Source: Naegleria gruberi (taxonomy: Eukaryota). Taken from it: a stretch of DNA of 64,000 nt. The DNA lies in NCBI GenBank assembly GCA_000004985.1, contig GG738861.1. The stretch is one strand, 5' to 3'. Below the pieces are notes generated by a model that saw nothing but the letters and a program-made list of their open reading frames with translations, ran no database searches and was not told the DNA's origin. Positions 12,180-59,928 of the stretch are shown one piece after another. Made by a program: the position numbers and the translations under genes. Every line of letters starts with the position of its first letter. Position 1 is the stretch's first letter.

Positions 12180-12772
12180 TTTTTTCAATTTTGATTTTGC
12201 AATCCCGAGTTCATCACATGTTCATTGTTCTTTAAATAATATAAAGCAGAACAAGGTTCATCATGATTCTTTACAATTTGTATTCTTTGGCAAATCTTAA
12301 GAAGATTATTTTATATTTATCAACACTTAATACATTAAAGAAGTTACAACATCTGTTGTTCCTAGTTGAATTCCTTAACTTTTGTTTGGAAAATATTAAG
12401 GATGTAATAGTTGTTCGTTGAAGATGAACATGTTCATCATCACTCTCATCTTAATATTTTCCAAATTATAAGTATCAGTTGCCTCGATTCCATAAGAGAT
12501 ATAGTAAGATTTTTTCTCATCAAAAGTTCGCAAAGAATCTGTGTACATTTTGCTCTCGATTGCAACCAACACTGGTTCCTAATCGAGACTTTTTTGGATA
12601 CCTGTAAGACTTTTTAGTGTAGAGGTGTAATGGGTCCTTTGAAAATAAACTGTAAAATTGAGGCAAGCCTTAACGAACTCTCTTCTACAATAGAGCGCCA
12701 AGTCTCTCCTAATAACAAACCACAAAAAAAGATACTAAGGCTGAAGGGAATATATTGAAAATTTTTATCATC

Positions 12773-14797
12773 ATGCCTTCTAATATTAATAATCGTGGTC
12801 ATAGTGAAGATGATAGTGATGAGAGGTTGATAAATTCAAGCCTTTCATTGGCTAAACCATCTAATAGAGCAGGTATTCAAACTGATGAGGATTTTGATGT
12901 TACAAGTCTTCATGAAACACAGGAAGCCATCAAAAAGAAATTGTTATTAGCAAAAATGGACTCACAGTATATGGACGACGATGATGATGTTGATAGTGAA
13001 GTAAAGTTTGAAAAGTTATCAACCAAGGGAAGAAGAAACCCAACAAAACTTGCAGAAATGAATTCCGCCTCAAATATGAGTCAAACTTCGTCATTCCAAA
13101 GAGGTGAAAAAAGAAGAGGTATTAGTAGAAGATTTGCCTCAACAATGAACTCTCGTAAAGGTCTAGATACTGGTAGTCAAATGGATACATCAAGCAATTA
13201 TAGTGATGATAACTCTGATACCCAAAGTCAACTTACCTCCGACAGTGGTGCCGATAGATCAACCTTAGATGATGAAGTTGCCTTCACTCATCAAGACGAC
13301 TTTGTACAGTTAAATAATTTGATCTCACAATTTAATATGTGTGGATTCCCAGTTTTAATCTTTGATAATTATGCAACAATAGAATATTTGAATCGAGAAG
13401 CAGAAGACCTCTTTGGTGTATTCTCCTTCTCTGTTTTGGGAGAACACGTAAGTGAGCTGTTCCTTGAAGATTCAGTTTGTGAAGTACAACAAGTCATTGA
13501 AGATTTTACAGGAAAACCAATCTTCAACAATTCTGATGGTGCATCTGTTACATCAATCAGTAAGGAAGTTGGAGCTGAAGAATTAAAAAAGAGAAAGGAT
13601 ACACTAATGAAAATCAGAATATTGAAAGGAAAAGCAACAATACTTAAAACATTTTTCTCTGTTAAAACAAGATTCATTACGATTCAAAAATTGGGAGTTG
13701 AACATTTTGTAGCATATATGGAAGTGATACAAGACAGTATTGAAGAAAAGAAAGAAATGGCTTTGAGAAAGGTTTACGAAGCCATCACAGATTTGTCAGT
13801 CATTCCAATTATTTCAATTTCTCAACAAGGTATTATTCAAACATTCAATACTGCATGCACTGCAACATTTGGATACTTGAAGAAAGATGTTCTAGGTAAA
13901 AATGTGAAAATGTTATGCAATGAAAAGGATAGACAAAAACATGATTACTATCTTCAAAGATATTTGAAAACAGGAGAGAAGAGAGTAGTAGATAAGACAA
14001 GATTTTTGAAAGCTAAAACAAAGAAGGCTAAATCAATCAAGATTGAATTAAGAGTTTCCGAAATTATTGATGTAGGAAGTAGTTCTTCATCATTTGTTGG
14101 TTTTATCAGAGATGTGAAGAACATGGTAACTAAGGAAGAACAATTGACAAGACTTGCAGACAAGATTTTCCCTAAGAATGTTGCTCAACGTATCAGTATG
14201 GGTCAACAAGTTATTGATATTTTCGAAATGTGTAGTGTGTTGTTCTGTGACATTGTGGGTTTCACAAAGATGTCGAATGGTAAAAGACCAGAAGAAGTTG
14301 TCTCAATTCTCCATGAAATTTTTGGTAGCTTTGATGATGTCTGTACAGCTTTCCAATTAGAAAAGATCAAGACAATTGGTGATTGTTACTTTTTAGCTAG
14401 TGGTGTTCCAAAATTCGTTCCTGAACATGCTGATAATATTGTAAAGGGAGGTTTAGCCATGATTCGTGTGATTCAACAATTTTGTAAAAAAGAAACCACT
14501 GTAGACCTAAAAGTAAGAATTGGTATTCACAGTAGTTGTGATATTATTGCTGGTGTTGTCGGTAAGACTAAACAAACCTATGACTTGTTCGGTAAAGGCA
14601 TAGAGGTTGCAGAAATTGTCGAATCAACAGGTAAAACCAATCAAGTGCAAATTAGTAACTCTACCTATCAATTACTGCAATCGGAGAAGCTTAAGAGTTT
14701 GTTTAGTGTTCATTATGAAGAAAAGGAAGAATTGCTTCTTGAAAAGGTTGGCAAAGTTGTTATTCCAGAAAGAACGTGGATTACCGATTTGCAATAA
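12773..14797 (+). CDS. PAS-PAS-class III nucleotidyl cyclase homology domain protein
   Basis: C-terminus carries FCDIVGFT ... KIKTIGDCYFLASG ... IGIHSSCDIIAGVVG ... YDLFGKGIEVAEIVES (cyclase homology domain). Two PAS-like segments lie upstream. Acidic S/D-rich N-terminus. The first true ATG is at 12773 (the track ORF starts at TTG). Confidence 0.7.
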   Translation: MPSNINNRGHSEDDSDERLINSSLSLAKPSNRAGIQTDEDFDVTSLHETQEAIKKKLLLAKMDSQYMDDDDDVDSEVKFEKLSTKGRRNPTKLAEMNSASNMSQTSSFQRGEKRRGISRRFASTMNSRKGLDTGSQMDTSSNYSDDNSDTQSQLTSDSGADRSTLDDEVAFTHQDDFVQLNNLISQFNMCGFPVLIFDNYATIEYLNREAEDLFGVFSFSVLGEHVSELFLEDSVCEVQQVIEDFTGKPIFNNSDGASVTSISKEVGAEELKKRKDTLMKIRILKGKATILKTFFSVKTRFITIQKLGVEHFVAYMEVIQDSIEEKKEMALRKVYEAITDLSVIPIISISQQGIIQTFNTACTATFGYLKKDVLGKNVKMLCNEKDRQKHDYYLQRYLKTGEKRVVDKTRFLKAKTKKAKSIKIELRVSEIIDVGSSSSSFVGFIRDVKNMVTKEEQLTRLADKIFPKNVAQRISMGQQVIDIFEMCSVLFCDIVGFTKMSNGKRPEEVVSILHEIFGSFDDVCTAFQLEKIKTIGDCYFLASGVPKFVPEHADNIVKGGLAMIRVIQQFCKKETTVDLKVRIGIHSSCDIIAGVVGKTKQTYDLFGKGIEVAEIVESTGKTNQVQISNSTYQLLQSEKLKSLFSVHYEEKEELLLEKVGKVVIPERTWITDLQ

Positions 14798-19377: not shown

Positions 19378-21049
19378 TTAAGTGAAAACTATGGCATGTG
19401 CCATCTTTGTTAATAGTTCTACTCCTGCATTTGTGAGATTATTATTCATAATGCTTAGTCTAGTCAACTGTTTCATATTACTGATGTGTTTTGCTCCTTC
19501 GTAACCAATATTACACTTGTAGGCAATTAGAGTAGTCAACTGCGTCATACCACTTACATATTGGGCGCCTTCATCTCCAATATTATTGCAACTAATATTG
19601 AGGTCGCTCAACTCTGGAATTTGGCAAATTAATTTCACTCCCTCACTTGTAATACCAGTGTTTAACAGGTCAAGTTGTTTCAAATTCTTCATGGATGAAA
19701 TAATAGATGCACCTTCGTCCTCAATTTGGTTTTCATTAAGTGAAAGATTAGTTAATTGCTTCATGCATGACAAAATTTTGGCCCCTTCTGCTGTGAGTTG
19801 AATATCGCAAATAGATAGGTCTGTTAGGTGGCACAATTCAGTGATGTATCTTATTCCTTGATCTCCAAGTCTATTATACATAACTTCAAGTGTTGTTAAT
19901 TTGTTTAATTGAGCAATAGCTGTCAAATTGGTAATCCTATTAGCGCTGATTTTTAGAGTGGTCAGGTTCTCAAGGTTAGATAACGAATCGACACCTTCGT
20001 CACCTATGCTATTAGAATTCAAATTAAGTTCAGTCAATTGGTTTAATTGTCCTATGTAACTGGTTCCTTCCCATCCTAAAGAATTATTAATAAGTACCAG
20101 GGAAGTTAATTGCTTCATTTCTCCTATTGTCTTTGCTCCTATTGGGTCAATTCCACATCTATAGGCATGAATGGATTTGATTTGCTTTAGTTCACTAAAA
20201 TATTGAACTCCTTCGCTTCCAATTGAGTTTCCATCAATATCAAGAAATTTCAAATTGGATAATTTTGAAATGAACTTGCAACCTTGTTCATTCAATGAAG
20301 AATCTTTGCAAGAAAGATGAGTTAATTTTGTAAGTTTGGTTATTGAATTAATTCCTTCATAACTAAGTTTTTCGCTATCCACCTTAAGTGACGTTAATTC
20401 TGACAATTGACTTATGGATTCCATTCCATCATTAGTTAATCCTGTTCCAGAAATGCTTAAACTAGTTAATTTTTTCATATTTCCAATACATTTAGCTCCT
20501 TCATCTCCAATCTTATTCCAATTAACATTTAATTCGGTCAATTGATCCAATTCACTTATTCCATTAATAGTATTTTTATCAAGTCTGCAGCAAGCAACCT
20601 CAAGACTAGTCAATTGTCTCATTCCATAAATAATTTTCAAAGACTCTTCTGAAATCCAATTCCAACCAGTGTACAGTCTTTTTAAATTTTGCATTTTCAT
20701 CAAAACTTTAAATAATTTCACATCAACAAGCTCTGTATCACTTTTGTTAAATTCAATACTTTCAATATTTTGTAAAAATTCACTTCTTGTTAAATATTTA
20801 ATATTTTCGGTTGTAATTTCTTTAGAAAATTTGAAGGAAAGTTTCGAATGTGATTTAATGACTTTTAAAAATTGATATGAAATTAAACTACAAGTTGTGA
20901 TGATAAACGAAGGCTCCAAATAATTAACAATTTCCAAACAAATTTCATTAGGAAATAAATTGTTTCGATTAATTCTACTTTCCACTATTTTCGAATATTC
21001 AACAAGGTCATAACAAATGAAACTACTTACTCTTTCCGAAATCAAGCAT
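19378..21049 (-). CDS. F-box-like / leucine-rich-repeat (RNI-type) protein; probable 46-nt 5' intron (20985..21030)
   Basis: N-terminal LFPNEICLEIVNYLEPSFIITTCSLISYQFL is F-box-like, followed by about 16 RNI-type LRRs (LTSLxIxxNxIGDEGA). The body ORF has no ATG, but an upstream ATG (MLDFGKS) joins in frame through GTAAGT..AG. Confidence 0.55.
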
Positions 21050-23990: not shown

Positions 23991-24957
23991 ATGACTGGAC
24001 TGTGGGTACTTGCTTCATGTCAAATTCATTCAACCATTTCTGATGACGACTTGATGCTGTCAAATCACTCGCTCAGCAAATTCACAACATTCCAGATGCC
24101 TTCATAATTGTTTTGACAGGTGCTGGATTGTCAACTTCATGTGGCATTCCAGATTTTAGAACTCCAGGTAAAGGACTCTTTGTAAATGGCTCACTCGGTA
24201 AGTTTCAAGTCAAAGATCCAACATCAATATTCGAAATTGGTTATTTCAAAGAAAATCCAATTCCATTTTTTGAGAGAATGAAGAATTTCATTGCCACCGA
24301 TTACAAACCATCGAAAACTCATTTCTTTATCAAGCTATTGCAAGATAAGGACAAGTTAATGAGATTGTACAAGCAAAATATTGATGGATTGGAGAGAAAA
24401 AGTGGAGTTTCAGATGACTTGTTGGTGCATTGTCATGGAAAATTGTACACCTCTCATGGCATGCATTGTAAAAAACAATTTACTTTACAATATTTAAGAG
24501 ATGAAATTACAAGTAAAGGTGAGAAGTTCAAATTCCCAAATGCAATGTTTGTGGAAATATTGTAAAACCTTATGTAGTTCTGTACGGAGAGTTGATTTAC
24601 CAGACAAATTTGGAGAATGTGTTTTTCAAGATTTGAAAAAACACAAAAATTGTAAACTATTCATTGTGATTGGAACCATTTTACAAGTTTATCCAGTTGC
24701 CCTCCTTCCAGAATACGTACCTCATGGAACGATGAGAGTTTTAATCAATAGAGATCGATGTGGAGGATTTTACAATATTCAATCAGCCATTAGAGAATGT
24801 GATGTGAAGAATAATCATTTGGATTTATATTTATATATTTATATTTGGGAGGAGCTGATCAACCATTGATGGATGTGTGGAATTGTTAGTGAGAGAATTG
24901 GGATGGGAAGATGAATTGATGGAAAATTCCACTTTGGTGGGCATGAATAATTTGTAA
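23991..24957 (+). pseudogene. Sirtuin (SIRT2-like class I) gene with at least 4 single-nucleotide frame disruptions
   Basis: IIVLTGAGLSTSCGIPDFR, QNIDGLE, HG..YTSHC, C..C, VKPxVVLYGE and LFIVIGTILQV form a sirtuin core spread over 4 reading frames. Shifts occur near 24041, the A-run at 24538-40, the T-run at 24622-26 and the CC at 24863-64. Confidence 0.55.
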
Positions 24958-25104: not shown

Positions 25105-26388
25105 TTAATTTTGGAGAGTGCGTGCACCACAAACCATTGTTAAGATCTCCTTCTCTGGTTTTACTTGTTCAGCTACCATATCCCACTTTTTTGCAGCATA
25201 GCGTAATTGATTAACAGGTTTACTGACCTCATGACGCTCAAACTCTGTTTGAAAGTAAGTTTTCCACTTTAACTTTTGCAAATAAGCTATTTTTGCAGGT
25301 GCATTTTGACTATGGAGATCAATAACCTCAAACAATCGATTGGCAATGTCAACAAAATCTGGTGAATGTCCTTCGACTGTTACAATGGCATGCAATAGGA
25401 GGGTACGAGCATATTCACTAACTGCCTGCAACAAAGTGACTGAATTATATTCAGTGAATTCTGCAGTAGCTTCCTTAAAAGCACTTGCAAGGGCATCATA
25501 ATAAGCGCCTGTAAACACCTCTGATAAGAAGGGGCCCTCTTCCTCACCCTGAGAAATTTTGTAATCATTATCAGCCTTACGGAGATAACCAGGCATTCCC
25601 AATGAAATACCAAATTCCTCAGCCAAGTTAGAAGCAAAGTTGTTTGCTGAAGCATGAAGGTTACCCAATGTTAAATTAATTAAAGCTCTAGCCATGGCAT
25701 CATCAGCAAATACGAAACTTAAGGCAGAAATATCACCAAATGCTTGATGAAGACTACCAGTTTGCACATTTCTAGAATCATTGAATTCTGGACGCAAATG
25801 ATCCAGTACATAATGTCCAGTTTCATGAGCAACAATGTCAGATGATTGACATGTGTAAATTGTATCTCCTTTGTCATCAGTGAAATAACCAAACTTTAGT
25901 TCAATACTACCATTACCACGAGAATAATAAGAATTCTTTTCGTCTTCCAAACCATATGGACTGATTTGGAGAGTACCACTTGGCATCTTATTCCAGTATT
26001 CAGCTGCCTTACTCAACTTTTTATCATCAGGGAATGTTTTTCTCAATGCATTGACAGTGTCTCGCCACATATTTGCAGTCAACTTGGCAGCTGTGAAAGT
26101 ATGTAACATATCAAATCCTGGAGTACGTGGAATTAACTTGTCAATCTGAGACATTTTAATCTTTCCACCAACAATACTCATCTCAGCATCTTGAGGACCA
26201 TCTTTAAAGACTTGGGGGACGTAACATTTCTCTATCATTTCGAGGAGAGGTTGGTTTCGTGTAACGCTAATATCCTGAGGGTAAAATCTCAAAACAGTGC
26301 CCTCCTCCTCAGAGGTAGCTGAAGCAGTAGCATTGATGGGTTTGTTTGTACGTTGTTCTGGCAGATTTTTTTGGATTTGAGATGACAT
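25105..26388 (-). CDS. Putative zinc metallopeptidase (HExxH)
   Basis: 427-aa ORF with VAHETGHYVLDH (HExxH). Single exon. First ATG at 26388. Confidence 0.5.
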   Translation of the reverse strand: MSSQIQKNLPEQRTNKPINATASATSEEEGTVLRFYPQDISVTRNQPLLEMIEKCYVPQVFKDGPQDAEMSIVGGKIKMSQIDKLIPRTPGFDMLHTFTAAKLTANMWRDTVNALRKTFPDDKKLSKAAEYWNKMPSGTLQISPYGLEDEKNSYYSRGNGSIELKFGYFTDDKGDTIYTCQSSDIVAHETGHYVLDHLRPEFNDSRNVQTGSLHQAFGDISALSFVFADDAMARALINLTLGNLHASANNFASNLAEEFGISLGMPGYLRKADNDYKISQGEEEGPFLSEVFTGAYYDALASAFKEATAEFTEYNSVTLLQAVSEYARTLLLHAIVTVEGHSPDFVDIANRLFEVIDLHSQNAPAKIAYLQKLKWKTYFQTEFERHEVSKPVNQLRYAAKKWDMVAEQVKPEKEILTMVCGARTLQN

Positions 26389-27002
26389 TTTCAACTTTTT
26401 TTATATGAAAAACTTTGAATGTTTTGAGTATTTATTGTTGAATTATATGAAATATTGGACGAATTTGGAATGATTCCATTTTAGTAATACCAAGTTAGGT
26501 TAGTGCTGAATTTTTACTTTTTCCTTTGCAGATTTTTAAATTGGAAAATAGTAGAAGATATTTCGAAATACAAATTATCCATAGCTCTTATTAGATGGAT
26601 ATTTATTGTTACAAAGTGTCCATAGCTCTGTTCAAAATTTTTGATTGGAATATTGCAGTTGTTTGCAAACAACTCAACGCTCACATGAAATATCAAACAG
26701 TCTTTATCAGCACTTCATCATATATTTCTAATGTTTGCAGTAATTGAACTATTGGTGGTTGGAATTTTGTTAAATCTGTGAAATATTAGCACAATCATCT
26801 AATGAATAGGAAGTTAAGTTGGTGACAAAAGTTGATAAAAACATTAAATCGCTCCTCATGGAGTGAAACTTCTCATTTTCGTGACTTGTAAAAACGTGTT
26901 CCATATCAAACTTTCATATTATTGTAAACTCTCAATGTTTTCGAACCTGTTGTCTCATTGTTTTTACTATAAATAAATAACATTATATTTTATTTTTTTC
27001 AT

Positions 27003-27749
27003 TTGAAAAATCAGTCTGACTTTGGCAAGTTTGAACCAATTCAAAAATCAGCAGAGTTTTTACCTGCCACTTTTCTAGTCCAGGCTGGACTTGTGACTAT
27101 TCGACACGATAACCAAATGATAATGTTGGATATACCAAACGACGAAATTATGTTAGCATTTTGTGAAAGATTAATCTCGAAATCTCTACCAAAAAGTTTA
27201 TTATTTCAACATGCAGAAAGATGTACCACTCACATTAATAACAATGACCCACGAGCAACTTTCAAGTTTTTTAGCATGTATTCCCTTTTCGTCAATGGAC
27301 ACTATTGCTAAATATGAGGTTTATTATCACACATGCATTTTTATGTTAATGTCTTTGATGGACTTTGATGTGACTTGTCAAGATTGGACAAACACTGGAA
27401 TAATAGACCTTGTTGTGATTGAAGAAACATTTATTTGGATAATTGAACTCAAGGTAGACAAATATGTAGGTTCTTGATTGAACCGATGATTCAAAAGCAA
27501 AAGCAGTATTTTGAAAAATATAAGAATTTCAATAGACAGATCGAATATATGGACATTATTATTAACAAAAGAACTTTTGAATGTGAAACCTTACCACAAA
27601 ATGAAAATATATCATTGTGCAAAGATCGTGAAGGAATTGTCGCTCCATCACCATCAAAACAAGTCATAATCAAACCAACTCTAAAAAGAGCTCAAGGAAT
27701 TCTAACCATTGGAAATGTTTCATTAGATAAAGGTAATCCAAAGAGTTGA
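27003..27749 (+). pseudogene. Fragment of a DUF1703/PDDEXK_9 (PD-(D/E)xK nuclease-fold) protein, frameshifted and lacking the AAA-ATPase-like N-terminal half
   Basis: IPNDEIMLAF ... EVYYHTCIFMLMSL ... TNTGIIDLVVIEETFIWIIELKV ... QKQKQYFEKY matches the PDDEXK_9 pattern (E.YH motif, G.GR.D(I/L) hhhh ... hIIE(F/L)K, C-terminal KkYyeky). No ATG. Three consecutive ORFs in frames 0/+1/0. Confidence 0.4.
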
Positions 27750-28330
27750 ACTATGGAACAAATCCGAATGGTATTATTGGACAATGGGTTGAATGAAGAA
27801 GATATACTAAACAACTTGAAAGGATTTGTTTTGGAAATTATTGTCGATGCATTGATTAATTTTAACGGTGACATGCAAGCTAAAATCAAACATGTTTGTA
27901 GTATATTATCTGAGATGCAATATTCTTTTGTTATTGCACAGTCTCTTGTTAGGTGGTCCTTTAACAACTTGGTTGAGTATAAATGCTCAAAGAAAATCTA
28001 AGGAAAGATCATATATGAAGTGAGTTTGAGGAATTTTAATCTTAAAATCCCTTAACAAATTGTGATGAACTCCACGATCAGTCTGCTTTTTTTGCTGTAT
28101 TGACTTTGAAAAAAATACTTTACGGAACAAGGCTTTGTTGTTGATGATGGAACATCAAGAATTGTTTGCGATATTCGATCAGAAAAAACCGCAGCTATCA
28201 TTATCATCGTAATGGAGGTAAAACCTGAAGAAGGTTGGTATTTTCTCATAATAACAATAATAATTAATGAAATGAATTGCTAATTAATAGAGAATATTAT
28301 ATTTTCGGATGATGTTTGTTTTGAAATTAT

Positions 28331-28672
28331 TTGCATGATTCGTGGTTTATTTTGAATAATTGTTCTTTAATTTCAAAACAATGGTTTAATGTGATCAAGG
28401 AACGTTCAAAACTTGTTATTCAATTTAAAAAACAATTTACAGAAAATAGAATTGAATTGTTAATGAAAAGTCAATTCATGAATAGTATTGTAAATATTAA
28501 GTTTTCTAATAGGTTGCTTAACTCTCCAGATAAAGTTAAATTCATAAGTGAAATGAAACAATTAACATCACTTAATATTGCTAACAATCAAATTGGTGTA
28601 GAAGGATCCAAATTCATACATGAAATGAAACAATTAACATCACTTTATATTGGTGCTATTAGCGTAGAATAA
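28331..28672 (+). pseudogene. Truncated paralog fragment of the F-box/LRR gene family (no start codon)
   Basis: CSLISKQWFNVIKERSKLVIQFKKQF...MKQLTSLNIANNQIGVEGSKFI is similar to the N-terminus of the 19378..21049 protein. Stop 6 nt upstream and no ATG. Confidence 0.45.
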
Positions 28673-30045: not shown

Positions 30046-31655
30046 TTAAACCAAATTGTGAGTTGGCAAATTTGTTGCACTAACAGTACATGGTGTAGTA
30101 TCTGGAGTGACGTAGGTATTAGTAGTGAATTTCAATGGAGTCAAAGAGACACCACCAATAGTACTATCAAAGGTCAATTCAACCATAGCAGCAGTCCATC
30201 CACTTGTTGGATTATTAATTAAAACTTGCCATTCGAGTGATTTAGTTTCAATTAAGGTTTGATTTTGCCAAACATTGGATCCAATGGTGGTAGTTCTGAA
30301 ATCGTGTGCAGTTGGATTGGTGGCGTACCAAACTTTAACACTGGATGGCTTAATTCCATTACTAACTGAAACATAAATGACAACACCTGCATTCACATAT
30401 TCATGAGAGAAACTGTACTTTGGAAGAATTTGATTATTCAATCTGGAAGTGTAGAATGTTCCAAGAACAGCAAGAACATCAGTGTTGAGCATGTAGTGAC
30501 CAGTGTTTGGAAGGAAACGAACATACTTTTCACCCTTAATCTTTGAATAGGAAAGTGCATTAAGATCTCTATACATTAAGGTGAGATTAAATTATGAAAT
30601 TATGAAAGAAAACTTACGGAGCAAAGAATTCATCACCCATAGAAAGTATTTGATACTTTGGAATAGTTTGCAATCTAACATAATTAGCTGGATCAACAAT
30701 ATCTGTCAAACTGTCAAAAACATCATTGAAAAGATAATCAATGACACCTGCAGAAACATAATCATGGAAAGCAAGAGGCCAAGCACATAAATTATTATAA
30801 GTTCTCAAAATGAAATCTCTTGTTCCAAATACAGGAATAACCATTGGAGCAATTGCAGAAACTCTTGAATCAACTGCAGCCAACAACAAGGTGGTCCATC
30901 TGATATTCAATAGGAGGAGATTAGTTAATATATTATTCGAATGGTTAATAATGAAAGTGATGAAAAAGAACTTACCCTCTCTTTGAAGCACCACTAACAA
31001 AGAATGTTTCAACATTATGATTAACTTGTTTCTTAACAAAAGCAACAACAGCATCCATTGCCATCTTACTTCCCTTAACTTGAGGTAATTGAGTAACATA
31101 CAATAAATTAGATGGATCACTTGTATTACTCATGAAACGATTCCAACCGAATCCAATAATAGCATCTTCAGTTCTACTAGTATGAGTAGAATCAGAAGCA
31201 TAGGTAATTGGTTGATTTGGTACAATATATACAATAGCAGTAATACTCTTTGTGGTAACTGCAAGATTATAAGTGAAGGAAGGAACATAAATTGGTGAAG
31301 CTGATGAATCAGTTGCTCCAGGAACATCAGCATTGGTATTACCATTTGTGATAAAGAAGAAACTTTCATGATTATTCTTATTCAATTCATTTGGAATTGT
31401 AATTTCCAAATAATGGAACCAGGTGTGAGCTGAGCCAACCTCTGATTCAGGCAACCAAGTGAGAGAGGTAACATTCAATGTGTAGATGGTAGCACCAGTG
31501 ATGGTTCTACTACTGATTAATTTGTAGGCATAAACACTTTCTGGTAAATTAACATAGTTTCCCAAAGATTGTTTGAAATTGACTGAAGTTGAGTGGACGA
31601 AACTGCACAAACAGACCATGAGAATGGCCATAATCACAATATTTAACTTGTTCAT
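30046..31655 (-). CDS. PhoPQ-activated pathogenicity-related (PqaA)-family alpha/beta hydrolase, secreted; exons 30976..31655, 30618..30899, 30046..30568
   Basis: Signal peptide MNKLNIVIMAILMVCLCSFVHS. Nucleophile elbow VSGASKRG|WTTLLLAAVD is split by intron 1. Two GTAAGT..AG introns with consistent phases (2, 2). Confidence 0.6.
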
Positions 31656-32619
31656 TGTTAAATAGTATTGTTTTGTTTTTTTAAAGTTTAATACATAGTG
31701 TTTGCTCCAGCACAATGTTTTTATTGTGTTGGAGCATTTATTTAATTATGGCATTTGATTGACAGTTTTGGTTTATTATGCGCTTAATTTTCCTTCATGT
31801 GTTGTGTGTTTACAACTTTTCGCAACTATTGCATTAACACTTTAATAATAATAGAGTAATAGATCTATTTATGGAAAGTTTCAATAGTTTTCAGAACTCG
31901 TAAAACAAGCTTTAAGGTATAATAACAATGCTTTTGCTGACAATCAATATTATGTTTTTGGCTAAGATGATACACTAAAGGAATTCTTCTGTTTAGAGCA
32001 ATGCGTAATCATTAGTTAATAGTTAAGACGAAATATTTCCAATAACTGCGTCTCGTCAAGCAGAGTCTGTGCATGGTATGCAAAACTGTAGTGGTATCTT
32101 TTGTAATATACCTTAATCATGAATACATTAATGGCAGACGATCTTAACCTTAATAATTTCTATTCAAAAAACAATTTACCTATGAGTAATTCCTTATTAC
32201 AATTTGAACTGTTTAAGAAATTCAATGCAATAAACAACAGCTTCAAATTCATCTTGTTTTCCTCTTTCCAATATCTAAAAGATCATTTAGTTAACTTTCC
32301 TCACCTTCCTCCTACAGAGGAGCAAGGGAGAAACGAATATTGAAATCTCTTCCTCTTCATTGAATACTCTCAACACATTGCCCTCCAGTAAAATTTGTGA
32401 AATCAAAAGACCCTGGAAAATTCTCAAAGGATAAAAAATTAAGCAACAAGTTGAATTGGATTATGTGAATGTTTAGCAAAGAGTACCATTTAGGAAATAG
32501 TATTACTTTGCAAATACCACCCATTATAATAATCATCATCTCTGTTCTAATGATTATAATGGGTGGTCACTAACACAATTTTCAAATGATTAGTGACAAA
32601 TCAACACAATTAAAAAAAA

Positions 32620-40086: not shown

Positions 40087-43000
40087 TTATCTATTTAAAA
40101 ATTCTGAAATGATACGTCTATGTGCAATATCTCCAAAATGATGTCGATCAGATCCATTATAAATTGTAATAAATCTGGTTGTTAAGAGTTCAGAAGGATT
40201 CATTCTATCTACTGGATTCTTTTCTAAACATGCCTTAANNNNNNNNNNNNNNNNNNNNNNNNNNNNNNNNNNNNNNNNNNNNNNNNNNTGAATAAACATC
40301 ACAAGGGAAACTATGACTTGTATCTGAACAAATTAATCTTTCTGGACTCATATAACTAGCAGTACCTTGAAATGTATTTGCATGTGTTTTGTTTTTCAAT
40401 ATTGATGCCATCCCCCAATCGGCTAATTTAACAAAGCCATCTGAATTGAGTAGAATATTTTCAGGTTTAATATCTCTATGAAGTATATTCTTGTTATGAG
40501 CAAATTGTAAACCCATTAATAATTGACAAGCAGCTAAACTTAAAATATTTTCTGGTATTTTATCATTAATACTACCTTTTAAACAATCTTTAAATGTTCC
40601 TCTATCCATAAATTCCAATAAAATATAAAGAGTTTTATCTTCAATGAAATGATAACTATCAATTATACTACAAATATATGGACAAATTTTACATTCTACA
40701 AGACAATTAAATTCTGCTTCAATCATTTTAGTTGAATTTTTATCATCATTCTTATCTAATTTAATTTGTTTTAAAGCATATAATTGTCCTGTTCTATTAT
40801 TTGAACATTTTATAACTGAAGATGAAAATCCACTTCCTAATTCTTCCATTATTAATAAATCATTCCAATTAATATTCTTATTAAATTTTGTAACTCGTTT
40901 CTTTGATTTTGATGTATTTGATGATGATATAATTGAAATGAAATGATTAATAGATTTTCCACTTAAACTTCTATTTGAATTAGATATAAAATTTAAATGA
41001 TTAACAGATTTTGTATTATTATTATTATTATATAATTTTGAAGAATTATTATTAGAAATAGTACCAATGGGTGATGGTGATGTATTATCTAATATTTGAA
41101 CAACTCCATTTTCATTACATTTAAATTTATCAGATATTAAATAACTTCCACTTTCAGTATAATTTGATTGAAGTTTAAATTTAATACTTGCTTGCTGTTC
41201 TTGTTGAATGATGGATGGTTTTGGTTCATTATGTTTTTCTAATACTAAATTTCCAACCATGTGTTTTTTTCTATTCTTTTTCTGTTTTGTTTGTTTTTTA
41301 CTAGTATTACTAGTTGTTGTTGTTGTTGAATTATTATTATTATCATTATCATTATTATTAGTAATAGTAGTGGTAGTAGTTAAAGTGTTATTATTATTAT
41401 TAGTAGTAGTTTCAGAAGAAAATGATTGATTGGATGATTTTGAATGTTTTGGAGTGGTACTTGATTGTTTGGGTATTGAAAATAAATCATCATCTTCATT
41501 TCCATCATCATCAGCACTGATATCAAACATGTTATCTGATTGAAGTGTTGTAAAAGTGTTGTGATCTTCTTGTTTAGTTTGTGGAATATTAAATATATCA
41601 TCATCATTAACATCACATTGTAATGATGTTAATGATGATTTCTTTTTCTTAGATGGAGTACTAGTTGTTATTGAAAATATATCATCATTTAAAAGATGAT
41701 TTCCAGATGGAATATCAAATATATTATCAGATTCAATTCCTTTACAAGATTTTGAAGATGGAATATCAAATATATTATCAGATTGTAAATTATTACTACT
41801 TGATGGAAAATCAAATAAATCATCTGATGATTGTAAATTATTTAAAGTAGATGAAACATCAAATATATTATCAGATTGTAAATCACCTTCTCTACTACTT
41901 GATGGTATATCAAATATATCTTCAGATTGTAATCCTTCAGATGAACTTGTCGTCGTCGTCGTTGTAGGTGTTATATATTCCGTTACATTTTCATCACCTC
42001 CATTACCACCATCACCACCAATACCACCACCACCACTATTATTCCAATTTATATTCCTATTCGAATTCGAATTCAAATTATTAGAATTATTAATATTGAA
42101 AATATCTTGCATTGCATCTTTTGTATTTCTTACAGTAAAATCATTATCATCATATTCTTTAATTGGAGTATTGAAATGAATATTCTGTGGAGGTTTAGGT
42201 TGAGACATTCTTTGAAATTCAATAATTTGTGAAGGTTTTAATCCATCTTCATTTGAACTATTTGAATAATTTGAATAAGATCTCTTTCTTTGGAAGGTAA
42301 CTTCTTGTTTTGGTATTGAAAAGAAATCATCATCTTGAACCACAAATCTTTTACTAGGCGTTGTTGGTTCATCAAATATATTTGAATTAATAGAATTATT
42401 ATTATTAGAAATATTACTATTCTTATTATTACTATTACTATTACTATTATTAGAAATATTACTATTTTTAAAATTATTCTTAAATCTATTCGAAGGCTTG
42501 AAATAAGAATCCTCTTCAACACTCGACCTAGAAGTATCAAATATAATTTCATTAGTTGCTGCAATTTCATTATCACTCGATGCTATTATTAATTGATTAT
42601 GATTTCCTTTTCTTTTAGATCGTTGTTCTTTATAAAATCTTTTAGCCTTCTTTTCATACTTTTTCTTATGAAAATTATGTTTCTTCTTATTTCGTATTAT
42701 ATTTACATTATTCTTTGGAGATGATGAAAGTAGTGTACAATTTTGTTGTTGTTGTTGATGTTGATTATTATAATTAGGATTTAAATATTGTTGTTGTTGT
42801 TGTTGTTGATGATATTGATGATGATGAGTATCATAAATCTTCTTTTGTATTTGATTTTGAATCATCATATGAAGGAGTGGAGATGAAGACATTGGAGAAG
42901 TTGAAATATTATTATTATTATTACTATTAATTCTCTTATTGGTATTGGTATTATTAATAATTGAAATGTTTCCAGTTGTTGTTATTGGTGGTGGTGAAGA

Positions 43001-43486
43001 TGATAATGGAAGAGGAGTATAAATAATACCGGGACTATTAAATAATCTATTATTTGTATTACTAATAGTGCTAGTACTAGTACTATTACTACTATTAGTT
43101 AAAGTATTACTATAATCTTCAATTATATCTTCATAATTATCATCATTGAGTGAAGTAAATGATGAAACTCCAACAGGATTAATATTAGGAACACTGAACA
43201 AGTCACCACCATCTTCCTCATCAATTACTGTAATTAGAACTGGATTCGGAGGTGTTATTTGTTGTTGTTGTTGTTTGTTCTTTCTATATTGTCTTGAACG
43301 TTGTTTTTTATACCATCTCCTCTTTGTATGAATCATGGCATGTTGATGATGTTGATGATGTTGGTGACCATTGTGATGATGATGATGATTTAATCTATTA
43401 CTTGAAGATGATTGATTAATTGGAGGTGATGTTTCATTGTTCGTTGAATAATCATGATCGAAAAAATCGTTGGGTGGAAGAAGCAT
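40087..43486 (-). CDS. MAP kinase kinase (STE7/MEK)-like kinase with ~780-aa low-complexity N-terminal region; interrupted by assembly gap
   Basis: Kinase domain at the C-terminus: LGSGFSSSVIKC...YALKQI, HRDIKPENILLN, DWGMASILKN...TFQGTASYMSPERL (MAP2K activation-loop style). N-terminus is N/S/T/Q/H-rich. Ns at 40239-40288 fall in the kinase domain. Confidence 0.6.
40239..40288. other. Assembly gap (50 N)
   Basis: Run of n characters. Confidence 0.95.
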
Positions 43487-57888: not shown

Positions 57889-59928
57889 CTAAATATTCAA
57901 ATGTCTGTTGAATGTTGTTGGTTCATCTTGTTGTGCTTTGATATCATCATTAATATCATTGGTAGAATTTCCAATTATATTTGAATCAACTAGTGTTGAA
58001 GAATCTATAAAATCATCAAAATTCAATCTTCTTCTCACTTGATAAATATTGTCATCATTTCTATTTTCATTTAAATTATCATTTAAATTATTATCATTTA
58101 AATTAAATGATGAAAAATGATGAATCTTTTTCTTTTTTCTTTTAATTAAAGTAGGTGATTCTAAATTATCACAATTTCTCAAATCAACATGTTTCAAAGA
58201 TGAACATTTTAAAATTGGATTTTGTAAATGATGAGCACCTTGAAATGAAATGAATTGTAATGAATTAGATTGTATAGTTGGATTAATTAAATTATCACAT
58301 GTATTAACAGATAATTCTCTAATGGATGGACATGTTTCTACTATTTTAGTTAAATTATCATCATCTATTTTAGTCCATCCTAAATTAACTCTCTTTAATG
58401 ATTTTTTACTTAAATCAATTAATGAAAGAGATGAAATATTATAACAACCATGTAAATCTAAATCTTCTAATGAATAAGATGTAATTTTAGGATTATAAAT
58501 TAATTTACATTTCTTTGCTGATAATTTTGTAATTGGTGGTGGTGTTTTTAATTCATTAAATCCTATAAATGGTTGTGGTAAATTAAATATTCTTTCAATT
58601 GATTTATCATTAATTTTAGTATAATTTAATGATAATTTATCAAGTGATGGACAATTATTAGATGGAATATTAACATCTTCTAAATATGAACAAAAATCAA
58701 ATGATATACTTGTTAACATTTGACAATTACCAATTATAGGTTTAATTAAATTTTTACAATTTTCTAATTTTAATTCTTTTAATTGATCTAATTTTTGTTC
58801 ATTGGTTAATGATTTAATAGAATCATCATTTATATTAGTATAACTTAAATCTAATTCTTCTAATTTAGGTAAAACATTACAAACTTGTTTAATTGGTAAA
58901 TGAAATTGTTTAAAATTTTTACATCTTTGTAAATTAATTTTGTTTAAATTAATCATCTTTTTAGAAATTGAAATATTTGAAAAATCTAATAAATTAAATA
59001 AATTAATTGTTTTTAAAGTATTTGAATTTCTATCAATTAAATTACTAATAAATCTTTCATTAATACAAGGTGTACTTGTTATATTTAAATGTTCAAGTAA
59101 ATAACAATCTAATTTAATACCACCTGAACATTCTTGAATTGATCTACAATCTCTAATTTCTAATCTTTTTAAATTTTTACAAACTTGCATTGGATATTCA
59201 ATTTTAATAGAATATAATGATGAACAATGAATAATTGTTAATATTTCTAAATGTGTAAACTTTTCAAGAATTTTACAAAGTGTTTTAGAATCAAGTGCTT
59301 TACAAAATTCTAAACTTAATTCTGTAATTTTAGAAAATGGTGTTAATAATTTTATGAGTGGATTAATTTCTTCTTCTTCTTCAGGTTGATAATATAGATC
59401 ATTGAGTGAAGATGGAACACTTGATGAATGTAATCTTGTTGTTGTATTAGTATTAGTATTAGACATGGAATTATTATTAGTTGTATTATTAGTATTATTA
59501 TTAGTATTATTCAACTTGTTTAATCTTCTCATAGTTGACATTCTAGAAGCATAAGATAAATTTCTTAATGCTGGTTTGTTGTATGTTGATATTGGACTCA
59601 TCAGCCACTTGTCATCTTCAGAGTAAGCAACTCTATTTACAGTATTATTATTATTACATGATGTTGTTGTTGTATTATTATCAATACCTAATAATTTTAG
59701 GCTTTTAATAGATTTATAAATTGGTGATTGTAATTGTTTAGATATTAAAATCAAGTTTAAAAGCTTTTCACTTGTTGGAAAGAATGAAAAGATTTCAATC
59801 CATAAATCTTCAGGTAAGCTAGAGAAGGAATTAATTGTTGAGGTCTTGTTAGTAGTAGTTGACCATTGATGATTCGTAGATACTTGTTGTTGATTCAAGT
59901 CTTCATCAAATTCGAATAGTTGGAACAT
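57889..59928 (-). CDS. F-box-like / LRR protein
   Basis: LPEDLWIEIFSFFPTSEKLLNLILISKQL is F-box-like. N/T-rich linker. C-terminal Cys-containing LRRs (LxxLxLxxCxxI). Confidence 0.6.
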   Translation of the reverse strand: MFQLFEFDEDLNQQQVSTNHQWSTTTNKTSTINSFSSLPEDLWIEIFSFFPTSEKLLNLILISKQLQSPIYKSIKSLKLLGIDNNTTTTSCNNNNTVNRVAYSEDDKWLMSPISTYNKPALRNLSYASRMSTMRRLNKLNNTNNNTNNTTNNNSMSNTNTNTTTRLHSSSVPSSLNDLYYQPEEEEEINPLIKLLTPFSKITELSLEFCKALDSKTLCKILEKFTHLEILTIIHCSSLYSIKIEYPMQVCKNLKRLEIRDCRSIQECSGGIKLDCYLLEHLNITSTPCINERFISNLIDRNSNTLKTINLFNLLDFSNISISKKMINLNKINLQRCKNFKQFHLPIKQVCNVLPKLEELDLSYTNINDDSIKSLTNEQKLDQLKELKLENCKNLIKPIIGNCQMLTSISFDFCSYLEDVNIPSNNCPSLDKLSLNYTKINDKSIERIFNLPQPFIGFNELKTPPPITKLSAKKCKLIYNPKITSYSLEDLDLHGCYNISSLSLIDLSKKSLKRVNLGWTKIDDDNLTKIVETCPSIRELSVNTCDNLINPTIQSNSLQFISFQGAHHLQNPILKCSSLKHVDLRNCDNLESPTLIKRKKKKIHHFSSFNLNDNNLNDNLNENRNDDNIYQVRRRLNFDDFIDSSTLVDSNIIGNSTNDINDDIKAQQDEPTTFNRHLNI

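What the first reader, a model, noticed from the sequence alone, without database searches (positions are those of the whole stretch)
27003..28001. Bacterial-type DUF1703/PDDEXK_9 nuclease-fold gene fragment in an amoebozoan genome
Three to four consecutive ORFs in shifting frames spell the C-terminal half of a PDDEXK_9 (former DUF1703) protein. The IPNDEIMLAF block, the E-YYH motif (EVYYHTCIFMLMSL), the G-x-G-R-like TNTGIIDLVV strand and the IIELKV (E-x-K) catalytic strand are all there, followed by the family's ..QKQKQYFEKY.. tail. Full-length members carry an N-terminal AAA-ATPase-like domain (PF09820, as I recall). That half is absent here: the upstream sequence is promoter-like AT-rich DNA and the fragment has no ATG. 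This family is mostly bacterial (Bacteroidetes) and patchy in protists. A decayed copy next to an F-box/LRR fragment suggests an old horizontal-transfer or transposon-associated insertion that is now a pseudogene.
Basis: partly seen in the sequence, partly recalled or inferred. Interest (0 to 1): 0.6.

Follow-up and report, generated by a model that had tools for sequence, protein, structure and literature searches.

The report
Decayed bacterial-type nuclease gene in Naegleria
This is a dead, front-truncated remnant of a bacterial-type ATPase-nuclease gene (DUF1703/PDDEXK_9) in the nuclear genome of the amoeboflagellate Naegleria gruberi, joined in frame to a small uncharacterised helical module that is itself knocked out by a stop codon; it is a modest curiosity about gene transfer, not a working system.

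Summary
Three colinear segments in shifting frames (27063-27590) match the last ~185 residues of ~520-aa AAA-ATPase_like + PDDEXK_9 (DUF1703) proteins. The Pfam PDDEXK_9 hit scores 38.2 bits against a cut-off of 25.5, and the E, D and E-x-K catalytic residues are all present. The AAA-ATPase half is absent from the whole 64-kb window. Two frameshifts interrupt the remnant, so the pseudogene reading is supported.

Three corrections:
- The genome is Naegleria gruberi (Heterolobosea), not an amoebozoan. A window ORF is identical to XP_002678698.1.
- The family homology stops at ~27590. The rest of the third ORF and the whole fourth ORF (27597-27998) are a different conserved module. Its only relatives are two environmental contigs that lack any PDDEXK_9 part. 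It shows purifying selection (dN/dS about 0.35) and carries TGA where both relatives have Trp.
- I found no transposon features.

The nearest relatives found are all prokaryotic and only 27-43% identical, roughly equally so for the Bacteroidota and Proteobacteria/Methanospirillum groups. An old horizontal acquisition is likely, but the donor is unresolved. No closer homologue appeared in a 1.84-billion-representative protein search. Interest is low to moderate.

The parts
26395..27002 (+). Upstream spacer where the missing N-terminal two thirds of the gene (AAA-ATPase_like domain) would be expected. It is stop-rich in all three frames.
   Evidence: Three-frame translations. The full-length family HMM and tblastn with 11 full-length homologues find nothing at HMM positions 1-332 anywhere in the 64-kb window. 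GC is 0.275.
27003..27210 (+). Segment 1 (frame 0): remnant of the helical linker between the ATPase and nuclease domains (FLVQAGLVTI...IPNDEIMLAF). Family homology begins at about 27063.
   Evidence: HMM positions 333-410, E 3e-9. The residues Q, G, P-N-x-E that are invariant in the family are present.
27200..27275 (+). Zone of frameshift 1 (frame 0 to frame 1). The exact base cannot be fixed, because both frames keep weak family similarity across the overlap.
   Evidence: The alignment to full-length homologues runs straight across it, with only a 4-5 residue gap.
27211..27474 (+). Segment 2 (frame 1): the PD-(D/E)XK nuclease core. Motif I Glu is at 27316-27318 (YEVYYH), motif II Asp at 27406-27408 (GIIDL), motif III Glu at 27445-27447 and Lys at 27451-27453 (IELK).
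   Evidence: Pfam PF08011 34.8 bits for this segment alone. HMM 400-474, E 7e-24. E106, D136, E149 and K151 sit in invariant columns. The motif definitions come from PMC1913061.
27447..27474 (+). Zone of frameshift 2 (frame 1 back to frame 0). The two open frames overlap by only 27 bases.
   Evidence: A plain frameshift gives 19 residues between the Lys of IELK and the conserved Tyr, against 17 in the family.
27474..27590 (+). Segment 3 (frame 0): C-terminal helix and strands of the nuclease domain (MIQKQKQYFEKY...IIINKRTFECETL). It ends where family proteins end, but no stop codon follows.
   Evidence: HMM 484-514, E 3e-4, with 0 of 406 shuffles reaching the score. The Pfam match extends to profile position 99 of 105 when this segment is added. 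K168 and Y170 are invariant.
27597..27998 (+). Separate conserved C-terminal module in frame 0, continuous with segment 3 and predicted all-helical. It is not part of the PDDEXK_9 family.
   Evidence: 59% identity over 135 aa to P0001 (E 3.5e-38) and 51% over 109 aa to the contig that encodes P0060. These two proteins were the only hits. Neither of their contigs (L001, L002) has any DUF1703 similarity. dN/dS is about 0.33-0.36. There is no Pfam, NCBIfam or PDB sequence match. The AlphaFold model has pLDDT 66 and five helices. No significant fold match was found.
27747..27749 (+). In-frame TGA inside the C-terminal module, at a position where both relatives have an invariant Trp (TGG in L001).
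   Evidence: Alignment (KGW in P0001 and P0060 against KS* here). The L001 DNA shows 'ggttgg'.
28282..28672 (+). Truncated paralogue of the local F-box-like/LRR_6 gene family: an N-terminal part plus about two LRR units, then a stop.
   Evidence: blastn 67% over 233 nt and tblastx 44-61% to the gene at 19378-21045(-), which has strong LRR_6 hits. A 43-nt direct repeat at 28538 and 28610 marks the LRR units.

Best explanation

What is shown:
- Only the last ~185 codons survive, at 27063-27590.
- They are broken by two frameshifts.
- The ATPase two thirds of the gene are gone.

What is inferred:
- The gene came from a prokaryote long ago. It has only 27-43% identity to anything known, and its base composition matches the host.
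- It was probably kept in working order for some time. All catalytic residues survive, and each segment is still free of stop codons.
- It then died fairly recently through 5' truncation and small indels.
- The remnant runs without a stop into a separate, conserved helical module of unknown function (27597-27998). That module carries a TGG-to-TGA nonsense change. The most likely history (about 50-60%) is that the two parts once formed a single chimeric reading frame.

Today the locus most likely does nothing. By published prediction only, never tested, intact family members are ATP-controlled Mg2+-dependent nucleases. In them the Glu of motif I, the Asp of motif II and the Glu-x-Lys of motif III form the active site.
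For: Family identity:
- Pfam PDDEXK_9 at 38.2 bits against a 25.5 cut-off.
- Colinear HMM matches in three frames.
- Alignment to residues ~335-519 of ~515-525-aa proteins that carry PF09820 + PF08011.

Truncation:
- No match to HMM positions 1-332 in any frame of the window.

The frameshifts are real, not introns:
- At frameshift 2 the open frames overlap by only 27 nt.
- The GT..AG pairs that would restore the frame (27223-27274 and 27454-27497) have donors GTACCA and GTAGAC. Two real introns nearby both start GTAAGT.
- Each candidate intron would delete conserved family residues.

Host and integration:
- A window ORF is identical to N. gruberi XP_002678698.1, which lies on a 507-kb contig.
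- GC is 0.323 and GC3 0.29-0.32, within the range of host genes.

Prokaryotic affinity:
- Every named or context-checked relative is bacterial or archaeal.
- The literature describes the family as bacterial plus Methanospirillum (PMC1913061, PMC3424549).
- No closer relative exists among 1.84 billion representatives: 0 hits below 1e-10, and a best identity of 43%.

Recent death:
- Each open segment is far longer than chance allows, with P(no stop) between 5e-4 and 3e-3.
- All 15 columns that are invariant in the alignment are kept.

C-terminal module:
-.
Against: - No transcript data, so low-level expression or an unusual spliced product cannot be excluded.
- The rest of the N. gruberi genome and other Heterolobosea could not be searched at the DNA level. 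Intact or unannotated paralogues may therefore exist.
- The exhaustive protein search used only the 88-aa ORF2.
- The horizontal-transfer inference rests on taxonomic distribution, not on a phylogeny. The relic is about equally distant from all prokaryotic groups sampled.
- The in-frame junction with the C-terminal module would arise by chance about one time in three. Both relatives of that module lack a DUF1703 part, so the former-fusion idea is only moderately supported.
Confidence: 0.8

Rival explanations
1. Two unrelated relics lie side by side. A 3' fragment of a DUF1703 gene landed immediately upstream of, or inside, a resident gene that encodes the C-terminal helical module. The two were never one protein, and the shared frame is a coincidence.
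For: The two known relatives of the module (P0001 on L001, P0060 on L002) have different N-terminal sequences, and their contigs show no DUF1703 similarity in any frame. Continuity of frame has a one-in-three chance. A third truncated gene piece (F-box/LRR) sits 300 bases downstream, so the area collects fragments.
Against: The family's natural stop, expected at about 27590-27600, is missing. The homology to the module starts within 2-3 codons of the end of the nuclease homology, and there is no stop between them.
Confidence: 0.35
2. It is a live gene. The frame changes are short introns or assembly errors, and the TGA is an error or is bypassed. If so, a truncated nuclease-plus-module protein, or at least the 82-aa ORF 27753-28001 with its own ATG, is made.
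For: GT..AG pairs of 52 and 44 nt with the right length class exist at both frame changes. Real introns nearby can be as short as about 49 nt. The catalytic residues are intact. The module shows purifying selection when compared with its relatives. ORF4 starts with an ATG two codons after the TGA.
Against: The candidate donors (GTACCA, GTAGAC) do not resemble the GTAAGT of the two real introns examined. Splicing would remove EQLSSFLA and the helix between E-x-K and the conserved Tyr, both of which align to the family. No start codon or ATPase domain is present. No annotated N. gruberi protein matches any part of the interval, although the N. gruberi proteome is in the database searched.
Confidence: 0.07
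3. It is cargo or debris of a transposable element, as the first reader suggested as an alternative.
For: Three unrelated gene fragments are clustered within 1.7 kb.
Against: No terminal inverted or long direct repeats flank the interval. The best inverted pair is 25 nt at 84% and lies inside it. There is no other copy in 64 kb and no transposase or integrase similarity. Scans of viral and metagenome contigs found no close relative.
Confidence: 0.05
4. It is bacterial contamination or a chimeric assembly.
For: The family is overwhelmingly prokaryotic.
Against: It is embedded between typical N. gruberi genes on a 507-kb scaffold. Its composition matches the host. It is at most 43% identical to any prokaryotic sequence. 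It is followed in frame by a module that is 73% identical in DNA to other AT-rich environmental contigs.
Confidence: 0.01

Closest known systems
DUF1703 family: AAA-ATPase_like (PF09820) + PDDEXK_9 (PF08011) proteins of Bacteroidota, Proteobacteria, Methanospirillum and intracellular bacteria such as Cardinium, Simkania and Rickettsia
   Same: The order and spacing of the helical linker (LLFQTGYLTI / PN-x-EV), motif I Glu, motif II Asp, motif III E-x-K and the K-x-Y tail are the same. The Pfam score is above the gathering threshold. The alignment covers residues ~335-519 of full-length members. Fragmented copies of this family also occur in bacteria (L003; PMC6387759).
   Different: It lies in a eukaryotic nuclear genome. 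It lacks the whole ATPase module and has two frameshifts. It is only 27-43% identical to any member. The Gly-Arg before the Asp is Gly-Ile, a variation that some members also show. Instead of a stop codon, it runs on into an unrelated module.
Environmental proteins P0001 (ENA ERZ27254754, contig k141_2812008) and P0060 (ENA ERZ4903137, contig k141_94932)
   Same: They share the C-terminal module LKRAQGILTIGN-SLDK...W..EQ...VLLD...GL-EE...VD-L..F-GD...KI-H...V-W-F..L at 50-60% amino-acid identity. L001 is 73% identical in DNA, and GC is similarly low at 31-32%.
   Different: Their N-terminal parts are unrelated to each other and to DUF1703. Their module is intact, with Trp where the window has TGA.
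UBA domain (PF00627)
   Same: There is a faint similarity between EIVVDALYFFNGDVEAKIEH in P0001 and the second and third UBA helices (E=0.035, 14.4 bits). The module is predicted to be helical.

Membership tests
PDDEXK_9 (PF08011) | Score above Pfam's gathering threshold | tested here: met
   38.2 bits (frame-corrected) and 34.8 bits (ORF2 alone) against a cut-off of 25.5.
PDDEXK_9 (PF08011) | PD-(D/E)XK active-site motifs I (Glu in the first core helix), II (Asp) and III (Glu-x-Lys), as defined by Knizewski et al. 2007 | tested here: met
   E106 (YEVYYH), D136 (GIIDL) and E149/K151 (IELK) all fall in invariant columns of alignment A1. Definitions come from PMC1913061.
PDDEXK_9 (PF08011) | Motif IV Gln in the second core helix | tested here: inconclusive
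   In alignment A1 the conserved Gln column meets Pro162. In alignment A6 it meets Gln165. The Gln is one residue off the usual spacing to the conserved Tyr, just downstream of frameshift 2.
DUF1703 full architecture | [quoted passage not shown] | tested here: not met
   No match to HMM positions 1-332 and no tblastn hit with 11 full-length homologues in any frame of the 64-kb window. The upstream 600 bases are closed in all frames.
DUF1703 full architecture | Helical linker between the ATPase and the nuclease (LLFQTGYLTI ... PN-x-EV) | tested here: met
   HMM 333-410, E 3e-9. Q27, G29, P45, N46 and E48 are invariant.
DUF1703 full architecture | A single uninterrupted reading frame with start and stop | tested here: not met
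   Two frame changes, no start codon, and no stop at the family's usual C-terminus.
DUF1703 full architecture | ATP-dependent nuclease activity | not testable with these tools
   The activity is only predicted for the family (PMC1913061). There is no solved structure of a sequence relative and no match to a known defence system.
UBA (PF00627), considered for the C-terminal module | Pfam score above threshold, or a three-helix UBA fold | tested here: not met
   14.4 bits against a 22.4 cut-off, and only for P0001. Fold searches returned no UBA. The model is of moderate quality (pLDDT 66).
F-box/LRR_6 family of N. gruberi (neighbouring fragment 28282-28672) | Similarity to a bona fide LRR_6 gene | tested here: met
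   67% nucleotide identity over 233 nt and 44-61% by tblastx to 19378-21045(-), which scores 118 bits on LRR_6. The fragment itself gives no Pfam hit at E<=0.001.

The most novel reading that the evidence does not exclude
Before it decayed, this was a working eukaryotic chimera. A prokaryote-derived DUF1703 ATPase-nuclease was domesticated in the Naegleria lineage and fused at its C-terminus to a heterolobosean-specific helical module. That would be a eukaryotic reuse of a bacterial NTPase-nuclease, perhaps in defence against the intracellular bacteria or giant viruses of amoebae. Intact versions might still exist in related species.
Probability: 0.2. Interest if true: 0.5.

Novelty: new member of a known kind. 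Interest (0 to 1): 0.3.

Why it matters
It adds one documented case of a prokaryotic DUF1703 ATPase-nuclease gene that entered a free-living heterolobosean amoeba, took on the host's base composition, and then died. That is relevant to inventories of bacterium-to-protist gene transfer in Naegleria. It also warns annotators that this 1-kb interval mixes two unrelated homologies. In addition, it exposes a small conserved module of unknown function, known so far only from this locus and two environmental contigs. Nothing here suggests a new mechanism.

Tried and rejected
- Word-indexed protein search with the frame-corrected peptide found only P0001, through the C-terminal module.
- A search with a family alignment was swamped by about 7,600 Bacteroidales proteins and said nothing about eukaryotes.
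- Exact look-ups of nine other window ORFs, the kinase ORF and the neighbouring 427-aa ORF found nothing, so the official annotation around 27-28 kb could not be read.
- Two JGI metagenome scans found no relative of either part.
- A viral scan for the module found nothing. A viral scan for the nuclease found only family members at 24-29% identity, on phage-like contigs.
A scan with P0012 only showed that this hit comes from Methanospirillum, with relatives in Chromatiaceae, Sphaerotilus and Geobacter.
- tblastn against plasmids gave 26-29% identity, including the Simkania plasmid pSn, so no donor signal.
- PADLOC, NCBIfam and PDB sequence searches gave nothing useful.
- The structure prediction of P0001 was unusable (pLDDT 40).
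- The afdb50 fold library was unavailable.
- The intron explanation for the frame changes was examined and rejected.
- The exhaustive search would not accept the reconstructed peptide, so only ORF2 was searched.

Full report
**What is in the sequence.** The interval 27003-28001 contains four ORFs on the + strand: 27003-27311 (frame 0), 27211-27477 (frame 1), 27474-27749 (frame 0) and 27753-28001 (frame 0). A single TGA at 27747-27749 separates the last two. Joining the first three across the frame changes gives a peptide that hits Pfam PF08011 (PDDEXK_9). The hit has E=1.5e-9 and 38.2 bits against a cut-off of 25.5, and covers profile positions 1-99 of 105. ORF2 alone scores 34.8 bits.

**Test of the three-frame reading.** I built an HMM from 11 full-length relatives and scored each frame separately:
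- ORF1 matches HMM positions 333-410 (E 3e-9).
- ORF2 matches 400-474 (E 7e-24).
- ORF3 matches 484-514 (E 3e-4; none of 406 shuffles reaches its score).

The three pieces are therefore colinear with one ~519-residue protein. Each open segment is also much longer than the local base composition would allow by chance, with P(no stop) between 5e-4 and 3e-3.

**Family and anatomy.**
- An exhaustive HMMER search of 1.84 billion cluster representatives with ORF2 returned 42 hits below 1e-3 and none below 1e-10. Identity was 25-43%.
- The full-length hits (512-578 aa) carry AAA-ATPase_like (PF09820) followed by PDDEXK_9.
- The reconstruction aligns to their residues ~335-519, straight across both frame changes.
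- All 15 invariant columns of that alignment are kept. They include the linker residues (Q-x-G, P-N-x-E), motif I Glu (YEVYYH, 27316-27318), motif II Asp (GIIDL, 27406-27408), motif III Glu-x-Lys (IELK, 27445-27453) and the K-x-Y tail.
- Motif IV Gln is present but offset by one residue, and its placement depends on the alignment.
- These motifs are the ones Knizewski et al. used to define the family (PMC1913061).
- The ATPase two thirds of the protein are absent. Neither the HMM nor tblastn with 11 full-length proteins finds anything for positions 1-332 in any frame of the 64-kb window. The 600 bases upstream are closed in all frames.

**Frameshifts or introns?**
- At the second frame change the two open frames overlap by only 27 bases.
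- GT..AG pairs of the right length class do exist, at 27223-27274 (52 nt) and 27454-27497 (44 nt).
- Their donors (GTACCA, GTAGAC) differ from the GTAAGT of the two real introns I could read in the PhoPQ_related gene at 30046-31715(-).
- Splicing them out would delete residues that align to the family: EQLSSFLA, and the helix between E-x-K and the conserved Tyr.
- A plain frameshift at the second site leaves 19 residues between that Lys and Tyr, against 17 in the family.

I conclude that these are true indels and that the locus is a pseudogene.

**Host.** The 679-aa ORF at 57889-59928(-) is identical from first to last residue to Naegleria gruberi XP_002678698.1 (NAEGRDRAFT_79342), which lies on a 507-kb contig. 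The neighbouring genes are typical of that organism: PAS-adenylate/guanylate cyclase, LRR_6, EGF, B-box, kinases and PhoPQ_related. So the genome is heterolobosean, not amoebozoan. The relic's GC (0.323) and GC3 (0.29-0.32) match the host genes, which rules out contamination.

**A second homology inside the interval.**
- From 27597 to 27998 the sequence is not PDDEXK_9. It is 59% identical over 135 aa (E 3.5e-38) to P0001, a protein from an ENA metagenome contig, and 73% identical to that contig in DNA.
- A profile search found one more relative, P0060.
- The alignment runs across the TGA, which sits where both relatives have Trp; in L001 the codon is TGG.
- Neither relative's contig shows any DUF1703 similarity in any frame, and their N-terminal parts are unrelated to each other.
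- Pairwise dN/dS values of 0.33-0.36 between the window and each relative indicate a real coding module under purifying selection.
- The module has no Pfam, NCBIfam or PDB sequence match.
- A faint UBA similarity (E 0.035) was not borne out. The AlphaFold model of ORF4 (pLDDT 66, five helices) gave only non-specific helical matches.
- In the window the module follows the nuclease remnant in the same frame. Its homology starts within 2-3 codons of the point where family proteins normally end, and no stop intervenes.

This last point favours a former fusion gene, but only moderately. A chance in-frame junction has a probability of one in three, and the relatives lack the nuclease part.

**Origin.**
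- Every relative that could be named or placed by gene context is prokaryotic. These include Muribaculaceae, Methanospirillum, Clostridium, a Bacteroidota-like contig with a tandem array of intact and broken copies, and plasmids of Moraxella, Simkania and Calditerrivibrio.
- The literature describes the family as bacterial plus Methanospirillum. It also reports expansions in intracellular bacteria, including Simkania, which is associated with protozoa (PMC6387759).
- The relic is about equally distant (27-34% over ~185 aa) from the Bacteroidota and Proteobacteria/Methanospirillum groups, so no donor can be named.
- No annotated N. gruberi protein, and no protein in the collections searched, is a close relative.
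- Horizontal acquisition followed by a long residence is the most economical reading, but it is an inference from distribution, not from a tree.
- The surviving catalytic residues and long open segments suggest that inactivation is much younger than acquisition.

**Surroundings.** No inverted or long direct repeats flank the relic, there is no second copy in the window, and nothing resembles a transposase. About 300 bases downstream lies a truncated paralogue of the F-box-like/LRR_6 gene at 19378-21045(-). The 26.4-28.9 kb stretch therefore holds three gene fragments in a row.

**Verdict.** This is a 5'-truncated, twice frame-shifted DUF1703/PDDEXK_9 pseudogene in Naegleria gruberi. It runs in frame into a separate conserved module that is disabled by a nonsense codon. 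The host assignment, the extent of the homology and the transposon suggestion are not. It is a new, dead member of a known family in an unusual host, of low to moderate interest.

Noticed in passing
window 25105-26394 (- strand): A 429-aa ORF with an HExxH zinc-metallopeptidase motif (HETGHYVLDH). It has no Pfam family and no PDB relative, only a faint NCBIfam M36 match (E 0.007). Its GC of 0.388 is higher than that of the neighbouring genes. It ends 600 bases from the nuclease relic, and I could not find it by exact look-up in the protein collection.
   Followed up: partly
window 30046-31715 (- strand): The PhoPQ_related (PF10142) gene is split over three ORFs by two short introns with GTAAGT donors (about 76 nt at 30975-30900 and about 49 nt at 30617-30569). 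I used them as a local reference for real N. gruberi introns.
   Followed up: partly
L003 2383-8553 (ENA ERZ28669879, 864-kb bacterial contig): A tandem cluster of one intact AAA-ATPase_like + PDDEXK_9 gene and at least five fragments that carry only one of the two domains. Breakage of this family into pieces is therefore common in bacteria too.
   Followed up: no
window 40235-43486 and 57889-59928 versus 12755-14797, 19378-21045 and 25105-26394: Third-codon-position GC differs about threefold between host genes in the same window (0.09-0.10 against 0.26-0.29). Overall GC falls from about 0.33 to 0.22 beyond 58 kb.
   Followed up: no
L001 1665-2066 and L002 697-1038: The helical module LKRAQGILTIGN-SLDK...W..EQ...VLLD is known only from this window and two short AT-rich environmental contigs of unknown organism. 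It has no family assignment.
   Followed up: partly
window 24113-24565 (+ strand): A 150-aa ORF that covers only positions 1-129 of the 180-position SIR2 profile. It is presumably one exon of a sirtuin gene.
   Followed up: no
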